NCBI RefSeq assembly: GCF_055900595.2
Contig: NZ_CM148325.1
Strand: one strand, 5' to 3'
Length of the DNA: 64,000 nucleotides
The notes under the pieces are model-generated. The model did no database searches. It was not told the DNA's origin and worked only from the letters and a program-made list of their open reading frames with translations. Below, piece after piece: positions 22,538-22,622 of this stretch (position 1 is its first letter; every line of letters starts with the position of its first letter). The position numbers and the translations under genes were made by a program.

Positions 22538-22548
22538 AAATCGCTTTA

Positions 22549-22566
22549 CCTCAAGTTAACTTGAGG
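22549..22566. promoter_or_regulatory. SoxR operator: 18-bp perfect palindrome CCTCAAGTTAACTTGAGG in the soxR/soxS divergent promoter
   Basis: Perfect palindrome located between the divergent soxR and soxS starts, where the SoxR site within the soxS promoter spacer is expected. Confidence 0.8.
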
Positions 22567-22622
22567 AATTATACTCCCCAACAGATGAATTAACGAACTG
22601 AACACTGAAAAGAGGCAGATTT

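What the first reader, a model, noticed from the sequence alone, without database searches (positions are those of the whole stretch)
22538..22622. soxR/soxS divergent promoter with an 18-bp perfect palindrome operator
CCTCAAGTTAACTTGAGG (22549-22566) lies only 12 bp upstream of the soxR start codon and within the soxS promoter. This fits the known mechanism in which SoxR binds in an over-long promoter spacer and activates by DNA distortion. The palindrome is perfect in this strain.
Basis: partly seen in the sequence, partly recalled or inferred. Interest (0 to 1): 0.3.

Follow-up and report, generated by a model that had tools for sequence, protein, structure and literature searches.

The report
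Known SoxR operator in soxS promoter
This is the textbook binding site of the oxidative-stress sensor SoxR, lying between the two halves of the soxS promoter in an Escherichia coli genome; it matches the laboratory strain K-12 base for base, so it is real but ordinary.

Summary
CCTCAAGTTAACTTGAGG is a perfect 9+9 palindrome at 22549-22566, in the 85-bp gap between soxR (22073-22537, minus strand) and soxS (22623-22946, plus strand). It fills the 19-bp spacer between a soxS -35 (TTTACC, 22545-22550) and -10 (TATACT, 22570-22575).

The interpretation also holds. Both proteins and all 85 intergenic bases are identical to E. coli K-12, where this sequence is the published SoxR box. Mutating it abolishes SoxR binding, and SoxR activates soxS from the 19-bp-spacer promoter while repressing soxR (PMC4411124, PMC12825309).

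Two corrections:
- The palindrome is not special to "this strain". The 40-bp core is identical in 5394 of 5419 E. coli genomes. The 32-bp block from -35 to -10 is invariant in 12 other enteric species.
- The same DNA also carries the divergent soxR promoter (TATAAT, 22573-22568, minus strand), the soxR start site and probably the soxR ribosome-binding site.

Novelty: already known. Interest is low.

The only mildly unusual thing lies beside the site. soxR here differs from K-12 at 54 of 465 bases, all silent, while the promoter has no differences at all.

The parts
22073..22537 (-). soxR coding sequence (154 aa), a MerR-family [2Fe-2S] redox sensor
   Evidence: ORF. TIGR01950 SoxR equivalog at 248 bits against a cut-off of 116.9. 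154/154 identical to K-12 SoxR and to PDB 2ZHG chain A. The cluster cysteines C119, C122, C124 and C130 ([12 protein letters not shown]) are visible in the sequence and match the residues listed in PMC9909328.
22538..22622 (.). 85-bp soxR-soxS intergenic region holding a bidirectional promoter
   Evidence: 0/85 differences from K-12. 100% identical in 5380 of 5420 E. coli genomes.
22549..22566 (.). SoxR box: perfect 18-bp palindrome CCTCAAGTTAACTTGAGG, the single SoxR dimer binding site
   Evidence: Identical to the published E. coli SoxR box (PMC4411124). Mutating this site abolishes SoxR binding (PMC12825309).
22545..22550 (+). soxS -35 hexamer TTTACC; its last 2 bp overlap the palindrome
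   Evidence: Position. The 'soxS down' mutant in PMC12825309 supplementary file 2 changes exactly this hexamer and abolishes activation. Invariant in 12 enteric species.
22551..22569 (+). 19-bp spacer of the soxS promoter, 16 bp of it occupied by the SoxR box
   Evidence: Counted. PMC12825309 states that the separation is a sub-optimal 19 bp. No promoter with a 16-18-bp spacer was found.
22570..22575 (+). soxS -10 hexamer TATACT
   Evidence: sequence given in PMC12825309 supplementary file 2; invariant in 12 enteric species.
22584..22584 (+). Approximate soxS transcription start, giving a leader of about 39 nt
   Evidence: Inferred from the emphasised segment tatactccccaacag in PMC12825309 supplementary file 2. 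The formatting is partly lost, so allow an error of 1-2 nt.
22611..22615 (+). soxS Shine-Dalgarno AGAGG, 7 nt before the ATG at 22623
   Evidence: Read directly from the sequence. Inference.
22623..22946 (+). soxS coding sequence (107 aa), an AraC/XylS-family activator of the superoxide regulon
   Evidence: ORF. NF007584 SoxS equivalog at 228 bits against a cut-off of 174. 107/107 identical to K-12.
22568..22573 (-). soxR -10 hexamer TATAAT; shares 4 bp with the soxS -10 on the other strand
   Evidence: Reverse complement of ATTATA. Given as tataat in PMC12825309 supplementary file 2. Described there as a shared -10.
22592..22597 (-). soxR -35 hexamer TTCGTT, with an 18-bp spacer to TATAAT
   Evidence: The 'soxR up' mutant in PMC12825309 supplementary file 2 turns ttcgtt into ttGACA. 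Coordinates mapped by hand. Partly conserved in Enterobacteriaceae.
22560..22561 (-). Approximate soxR transcription start, inside the palindrome
   Evidence: Emphasised segment tataattcctcaag in PMC12825309 supplementary file 2. The paper states that SoxR occludes the start site and part of the -10 for soxR.
22549..22552 (-). Probable soxR Shine-Dalgarno GAGG, at the outer end of the soxR-proximal half-site (+ strand CCTC), 11 nt before the ATG
   Evidence: Read directly from the sequence. Inference only.

Best explanation
The palindrome is the single operator of the SoxR dimer in the E. coli soxS/soxR bidirectional promoter.

SoxR is made from the minus-strand gene next door and sits on the 18-bp dyad whatever its redox state. 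The dyad fills the 19-bp spacer between the soxS -35 (TTTACC) and -10 (TATACT). That spacer is 2 bp too long for RNA polymerase to engage both hexamers, so basal soxS transcription is low. When the [2Fe-2S] clusters of SoxR are oxidised by redox-cycling compounds or superoxide, or nitrosylated, the bound dimer kinks and untwists the spacer. This brings the two hexamers into register and strongly activates soxS. SoxS then switches on the superoxide and multidrug-resistance regulon.

The same bound dimer covers the soxR start site (about 22560) and part of the soxR -10 (TATAAT on the minus strand). SoxR therefore represses its own gene at all times.

What is shown here:
- the anatomy and its coordinates;
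- identity to the experimentally studied K-12 sequence;
- extreme conservation.

What is taken from the literature on that identical sequence:
- SoxR binding;
- activation of soxS and autorepression of soxR;
- the distortion mechanism.

What is inferred:
- the exact start sites;
- that one half-site doubles as the soxR ribosome-binding site.
For: 1. Anatomy. A perfect 9+9 dyad lies at 22549-22566. TTTACC, 19 bp and TATACT follow in that order. No promoter with a 16-18-bp spacer is detected.

2. Gene identity. The flanking genes are the SoxR and SoxS equivalogs, 100% identical in protein to K-12. SoxR is identical to the protein crystallised on DNA in 2ZHG.

3. Identity to K-12. The 85-bp intergenic DNA is identical to K-12 MG1655, so experiments on K-12 apply directly:
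- the SoxR box sequence and its location between -35 and -10 (PMC4411124);
- loss of binding when the complete site is mutated, the 19-bp spacing, activation of soxS and direct repression of soxR in vitro (PMC12825309);
- the DNA-distortion mechanism and the SoxR-DNA structure (PMC9909328).

4. Selection within E. coli. There are 0/85 differences from K-12, while the proportion of synonymous sites that differ (pS) is 0.07-0.20 in neighbouring genes and 0.49 in soxR itself. At a neutral divergence of about 0.13 per site, roughly 11 changes would be expected, and the probability of none is about 1e-5. The 40-bp core is identical in 5394 of 5419 E. coli genomes.

5. Selection between genera. In 12 soxR/soxS loci from Citrobacter, Enterobacter, Klebsiella, Superficieibacter, Pantoea, Rosenbergiella and E. 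albertii, the block 22544-22575 is invariant while the sequence on both sides diverges. That block is the -35, the box and the -10. Eighteen of its 32 columns were not part of the search pattern.

6. Link to soxR across bacteria. 37 of 121 sampled matches to CCTCAAG-N4-CTTGAGG in genomes from across bacteria and archaea lie within 500 bp of a SoxR homologue.
Against: Nothing in the data contradicts this explanation. The limits are these:
- No binding or transcription experiment exists for this particular strain. The inference rests on sequence identity to K-12.
- The original footprint papers could not be read.
- The cross-species loci were retrieved by a pattern that required both 7-bp arms. 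Conservation of the arms in that set is therefore circular, and only the flanks, the centre and the spacing are independent evidence.
- The start-site coordinates come from text markup in a supplementary table.
Confidence: 0.97

Rival explanations
1. The palindrome acts as an RNA hairpin in the soxR (or soxS) leader. It would control translation, since one arm contains the probable soxR Shine-Dalgarno GAGG, or would act as a terminator.
For: If the whole palindrome were transcribed it would form a 7-bp stem with a UUAA loop (centroid -9.1 kcal/mol, third sequence). GAGG lies in one arm, 11 nt from the soxR ATG.
Against: - The soxR start site lies inside the palindrome at about 22560, so only one arm is in the mRNA (PMC12825309).
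- The soxS start site is downstream of the palindrome.
- The actual leaders fold no better than shuffled sequences (z = -0.04 and +1.01).
- No T-run follows the stem, and no terminator is predicted there.
- Conservation covers the -35 and -10 hexamers exactly, which points to a DNA signal and not an RNA one.
Confidence: 0.01
2. The palindrome is a chance or structural feature, such as a HpaI-type GTTAAC site or a potential cruciform, with no regulatory role. The real SoxR site would then lie elsewhere in the region, for example at the partial half-site near 22576-22582.
For: Perfect palindromes with arms of 9 or more occur somewhere in about 20% of simulated 64-kb windows. An earlier genome-wide study predicted a second, partial SoxR motif in this region, as cited in PMC12825309.
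Against: - Mutating the complete site abolishes all SoxR binding, while mutating the partial motif has no effect (PMC12825309).
- The site is invariant across E. coli and 12 other enteric species.
- The same motif is linked to soxR homologues in distant phyla.
Confidence: 0.01
3. The operator is mainly a site for another regulator: SoxS autorepression, or a different MerR-family protein.
For: SoxS modestly represses both transcripts in vitro (PMC12825309).
Against: - From general knowledge of the family, SoxS/MarA/Rob sites are asymmetric 20-bp 'marboxes', not an 18-bp perfect dyad.
- The dyad matches the SoxR-box consensus used across phyla (PMC4411124, PMC4146615).
- In the E. coli experiments cited, all gel-shifted complexes depended on this site and were formed with SoxR.
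Confidence: 0.01

Closest known systems
E. coli K-12 PsoxS/soxR bidirectional promoter with its SoxR box (Hidalgo & Demple 1994, 1997; Hidalgo et al. 1998; Watanabe et al. 2008; NAR 2026, PMC12825309)
   Same: Everything that could be tested is the same. The 85-bp intergenic sequence is identical and so are the SoxR and SoxS proteins. Gene order is also the same: ghxP, sraL/ryjA, soxR, soxS, pdeC.
   Different: Only the silent-site background differs. The soxR coding DNA is 88.4% identical to K-12, and the whole window is about 96% identical. No difference lies in the regulatory element itself.
MerR operator-promoter of Tn501/Tn21 (merOP) and other MerR-family promoters (CueR/copA, ZntR/zntA, BmrR/bmr)
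   Same: - A dyad operator lies inside an over-long 19-20-bp spacer between -35 and -10.
- The regulator stays bound as a repressor or poised complex, and activates by kinking and untwisting the DNA.
- The regulator gene is often divergent and autorepressed from the same site (PMC9909328).
   Different: The operator sequence differs. The signal also differs: oxidation of a [2Fe-2S] cluster in place of metal or drug binding. The target is a second transcription factor (soxS), not a resistance operon.
SoxR boxes of non-enteric bacteria (S. maltophilia mfsA-soxR; the Streptomyces coelicolor and Pseudomonas aeruginosa SoxR regulons)
   Same: The half-sites are the same (CCTCAA...TTGAGG). The placement between -35 and -10 with a 19-bp spacer is the same. 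In S. maltophilia the box also covers the soxR start site and autorepresses it (PMC4411124). Matching boxes appeared in Streptomyces, Microbacterium, Vibrio, Caulobacter and other genomes.
   Different: These organisms have no soxS. SoxR acts directly on a few efflux or oxidoreductase genes, many of them far from soxR (PMC4146615). The centre of the dyad varies, for example GCATGC in Streptomyces against GTTAAC here.

Membership tests
SoxR-dependent (MerR-type) promoter, also called soxbox | Dyad-symmetric operator matching the SoxR box CCTCAAGTTAACTTGAGG | tested here: met
   An exact 18/18 match at 22549-22566. The published box sequence is quoted in PMC4411124.
SoxR-dependent (MerR-type) promoter, also called soxbox | [quoted passage not shown] | tested here: met
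   TTTACC at 22545-22550 and TATACT at 22570-22575 bracket the box. The hexamer assignment matches the mutants in PMC12825309 supplementary file 2.
SoxR-dependent (MerR-type) promoter, also called soxbox | Over-long spacer of 19-20 bp between -35 and -10 | tested here: met
   The spacer 22551-22569 is 19 bp. A scan for 16-18-bp spacers finds nothing. The spacing is invariant in 12 other enteric species.
SoxR-dependent (MerR-type) promoter, also called soxbox | A cognate SoxR is encoded in the genome: MerR-type helix-turn-helix plus the CX2CXCX5C [2Fe-2S] motif | tested here: met
   TIGR01950 equivalog at 248 bits. C119, C122, C124 and C130 are present in the protein sequence. The protein is identical to 2ZHG.
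SoxR-dependent (MerR-type) promoter, also called soxbox | SoxR physically binds the site, and activates only when oxidised, by distorting the DNA | not testable with these tools
   Supported only by literature on the identical K-12 sequence: gel shift and in vitro transcription (PMC12825309) and the crystal structure 2ZHG as reviewed in PMC9909328. The original footprint papers are not held in the library.
Enteric soxRS two-stage regulon locus | soxR and soxS are adjacent and divergent, and soxS encodes a roughly 107-aa AraC/XylS-family activator | tested here: met
   ORFs. NF007584 SoxS equivalog at 228 bits. The same arrangement is seen in 12 enteric loci.
Bidirectional promoter with a shared -10 (Warman/Grainger type) | Overlapping -10 hexamers on opposite strands, with divergent start sites 10-23 bp apart | tested here: met
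   TATACT (+, 22570-22575) and TATAAT (-, 22573-22568) share 4 bp. The inferred start sites are about 22584 and 22560. PsoxS/soxR is one of the five studied examples in PMC12825309. Start sites were not measured here.

The most novel reading that the evidence does not exclude
The regulatory element itself is not novel. The most novel reading that the data leave open concerns its surroundings.

The whole 85-bp region is frozen: 0 differences from K-12 and 1 from E. albertii. That goes beyond the 32-bp core. Meanwhile the adjoining soxR coding DNA carries a deeply divergent, entirely silent allele (dS 0.79 against about 0.14 in neighbouring genes), which ends at the promoter.

This could mean two things:
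- The soxS leader (22576-22622) holds a further, undescribed constrained element within Escherichia.
- The invariant promoter acts as a recombination junction at which soxR alleles are swapped between Escherichia lineages.
Probability: 0.12. Interest if true: 0.25.

Novelty: already known. Interest (0 to 1): 0.06.

Why it matters
It matters little as a discovery. This is one of the best-characterised bacterial promoters and the model for redox-switched, MerR-type activation by DNA distortion.

Its practical relevance is indirect. Changes in soxR or in this promoter cause constitutive soxS expression and multidrug resistance, so knowing that the site is intact and wild-type in this genome is useful for annotation. 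The locus also gives a clean illustration of purifying selection on overlapping signals. Two promoters, an operator, a start site and probably a ribosome-binding site share 32 bp, and that block is invariant across enteric genera.

Tried and rejected
- I tried to read the primary papers: the footprint (PMC394787), spacer mutants (PMC1169705), autorepression (PMC1170604), the original soxRS sequence (PMC328637) and the crystal structure (PMC2393793). None is held in the library, so I relied on later open papers that quote or re-test the site.
- A standard sigma-70 scan with 16-18-bp spacers found nothing in 22350-22800. This is the expected negative result for a 19-bp spacer, not evidence against a promoter.
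- I tested an RNA-structure reading of the palindrome and of both leaders and rejected it.
- I asked whether the bare palindrome is statistically surprising in 64 kb. It is not: about 20% of simulated windows have one. Its significance comes from position and conservation.
It also required both arms, so it cannot show how often soxR loci lack the box.
- I looked for a donor of the divergent soxR allele among the fetched loci. None is closer than about 88-89%.

Full report
**Observation**

The sequence read, the inverted-repeat finder and an exact or 3-mismatch pattern search all place CCTCAAGTTAACTTGAGG at 22549-22566. It is a perfect 9+9 palindrome with no gap between the arms, and it occurs once in the window.

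ORF listing gives a 154-aa ORF at 22073-22537 on the minus strand and a 107-aa ORF at 22623-22946 on the plus strand. Eleven bases separate the palindrome from the soxR ATG, so '12 bp upstream' is a fair count.

A bare palindrome of this size is not remarkable in 64 kb. In my simulation, 39 of 200 first-order Markov windows contained a perfect palindrome with arms of 9 or more. The expectation for one centred in a given 85-bp stretch is about 3e-4. The argument below rests on position and conservation, not on the palindrome's mere presence.

**What the genes are**

The two ORFs score as the NCBIfam equivalogs for SoxR (TIGR01950, 248 bits, cut-off 116.9) and SoxS (NF007584, 228 bits, cut-off 174). 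They are 154/154 and 107/107 identical to the E. coli K-12 proteins. SoxR is also identical to the chain crystallised in 2ZHG/2ZHH.

The four cluster cysteines C119, C122, C124 and C130 are present, matching the residues listed in PMC9909328. The neighbours are ghxP and pdeC, as in K-12. Rfam finds the sRNA sraL/ryjA at 21941-22080.

**Promoter anatomy**

On the plus strand, TTTACC (22545-22550) and TATACT (22570-22575) bracket the palindrome with a 19-bp spacer at 22551-22569. A consensus scan limited to 16-18-bp spacers finds no promoter in 22350-22800. That is the expected result for an over-long spacer.

On the minus strand, TATAAT (22573-22568) overlaps the soxS -10 by 4 bp. It is preceded, after 18 bp, by TTCGTT (22597-22592). 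These assignments match the sequences and mutants tabulated in supplementary file 2 of PMC12825309:
- 'soxS down' replaces TTTACC.
- 'soxR up' converts ttcgtt to ttGACA.

The emphasised segments in that table suggest start sites near 22584 for soxS and 22560 for soxR. The soxR start therefore lies inside the palindrome. GAGG at the outer end of the soxR-proximal half-site (22552-22549, minus strand) is the only Shine-Dalgarno-like sequence ahead of the soxR ATG, 11 nt away. That last point is my inference.

**Link to experiment**

The 85-bp region is identical to K-12 MG1655 at every base, so K-12 experiments apply directly.

- PMC4411124 quotes 5'CCTCAAGTTAACTTGAGG as the E. coli SoxR box. 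It describes the box as lying between -35 and -10 of soxS. Oxidised SoxR activates soxS, and the same site autorepresses soxR.
- PMC12825309 (NAR 2026) shows by gel shift that mutating this complete site abolishes SoxR binding, whereas a nearby partial motif is irrelevant.
- The same paper states that the soxS elements are a sub-optimal 19 bp apart. It shows in vitro that SoxR activates soxS while directly blocking the soxR transcript, even when soxS activation is disabled.
- The distortion mechanism (a kink at the dyad centre that realigns -35 and -10) is reviewed, with the SoxR-DNA structure, in PMC9909328.

The original footprint papers are not in the library.

**Independent sequence evidence for function**

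The window comes from an unusual E. coli lineage. Over 22000-23000, only 9 of 5426 complete genomes are at least 99% identical and 5411 are 90-95% identical. The window as a whole is about 95-98% identical to K-12.

Against K-12, the proportion of synonymous sites that differ (pS) is 0.07-0.20 in 14 neighbouring genes and 0.49 in soxR (54 silent changes, no amino-acid change). The intergenic region has 0 differences in 85 bp. At a neutral divergence of about 0.13 per site, roughly 11 changes would be expected, and the probability of none is about 1e-5.

Across E. coli, the full 85 bp is identical in 5380 of 5420 genomes. The 40-bp core 22540-22579 is identical in 5394 of 5419. So 'perfect in this strain' is true but not distinctive.

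Of 121 boxes, 37 lie within 500 bp of a SoxR homologue, and 12 enteric loci have the divergent soxR/soxS arrangement.

In those 12 loci plus the window, columns 22544-22575 are invariant while the sequence on either side diverges. That block is CTTTA, the box and AATTATACT: exactly the -35, the spacer and the -10. Eighteen of these 32 columns were not constrained by the search pattern.

Many of the remaining hits are in Streptomyces and other actinomycetes and are not near soxR. This fits the published picture of soxboxes upstream of scattered SoxR target genes in such organisms (PMC4146615). Some hits, for example in archaeal genomes, are probably chance.

**Rivals**

An RNA-hairpin role is unlikely. 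Only one arm is transcribed into the soxR mRNA and none into the soxS mRNA. The two leaders fold no better than shuffled sequences (z = -0.04 and +1.01). No terminator-like T-run follows the stem.

A chance palindrome, or a SoxR site located elsewhere, is excluded by the published mutant gel shifts and by the conservation.

A role mainly for another regulator has no support beyond modest SoxS repression in vitro.

**Verdict**

Both the observation and the interpretation are correct. The element is the canonical, already known SoxR operator in the soxS/soxR bidirectional promoter. It is present here in wild-type form.

- The same 32 bp also encodes the soxR promoter, its start site and probably its ribosome-binding site. 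SoxR therefore autorepresses from this site, which explains the total invariance.
- The palindrome's perfection is universal in E. coli and its enteric relatives, not a property of this strain.

Novelty: already known. Interest: low.

Noticed in passing
window 21800-22537 (soxR CDS 22073-22537 and the spacer upstream of sraL): soxR differs from K-12 at 54 of 465 bases, all synonymous (pS 0.49, dS 0.79, dN 0). Fourteen neighbouring genes have dS of 0.07-0.23. This soxR is about equally distant (~88%) from K-12 soxR and from E. albertii soxR. The divergent tract ends at the invariant promoter. The pattern suggests an imported or very old allele; it is carried by only about 9 of 5426 complete E. 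coli genomes. No donor was found among the fetched loci.
   Followed up: partly
window 21941-22080 (+): The Hfq-binding sRNA sraL/ryjA (Rfam RF01408, 157 bits) is convergent with soxR and overlaps its 3' end by 8 nt, as annotated in K-12.
   Followed up: partly
L004 (E. coli E138, NZ_AP022351.1), locus 1700-2560; corresponds to window 22563-22571: This clinical isolate has an IS1X4 element inserted inside the soxS promoter. The two junction matches overlap by window 22563-22571 (GAGGAATTA), a 9-bp target duplication typical of IS1. The insertion separates the SoxR box and -35 from the soxS -10 and truncates the soxR -10. Its SoxR protein accession also differs from the common one. The effect on soxS expression and drug resistance is unknown.
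   Followed up: partly
window 45332-45355: This is the longest perfect palindrome in the window (24 bp, AAAGCCGGATGATCATCCGGCTTT). By synteny with K-12 it falls between the convergent genes ubiA and plsB, and it looks like a bidirectional intrinsic terminator.
   Followed up: no
window 1439-1458: A 20-bp perfect palindrome, CGTTATTGGTACCAATAACG, lies inside the fdhF coding region by synteny with K-12. It is upstream of the selenocysteine codon region. Its significance is unknown.
   Followed up: no
window 3994-4143: This 150-bp stretch matches four overlapping positions spaced about 113 bp apart in the K-12 gltP-yjcO spacer. K-12 therefore carries more tandem copies of this repeat than the window does.
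   Followed up: no
whole window: Identity to K-12 MG1655 is only about 95-97.7% over long collinear blocks. There are alignment gaps near 30725-30928 and 37934-38445. This points to a divergent E. coli lineage, possibly a cryptic clade.
   Followed up: partly
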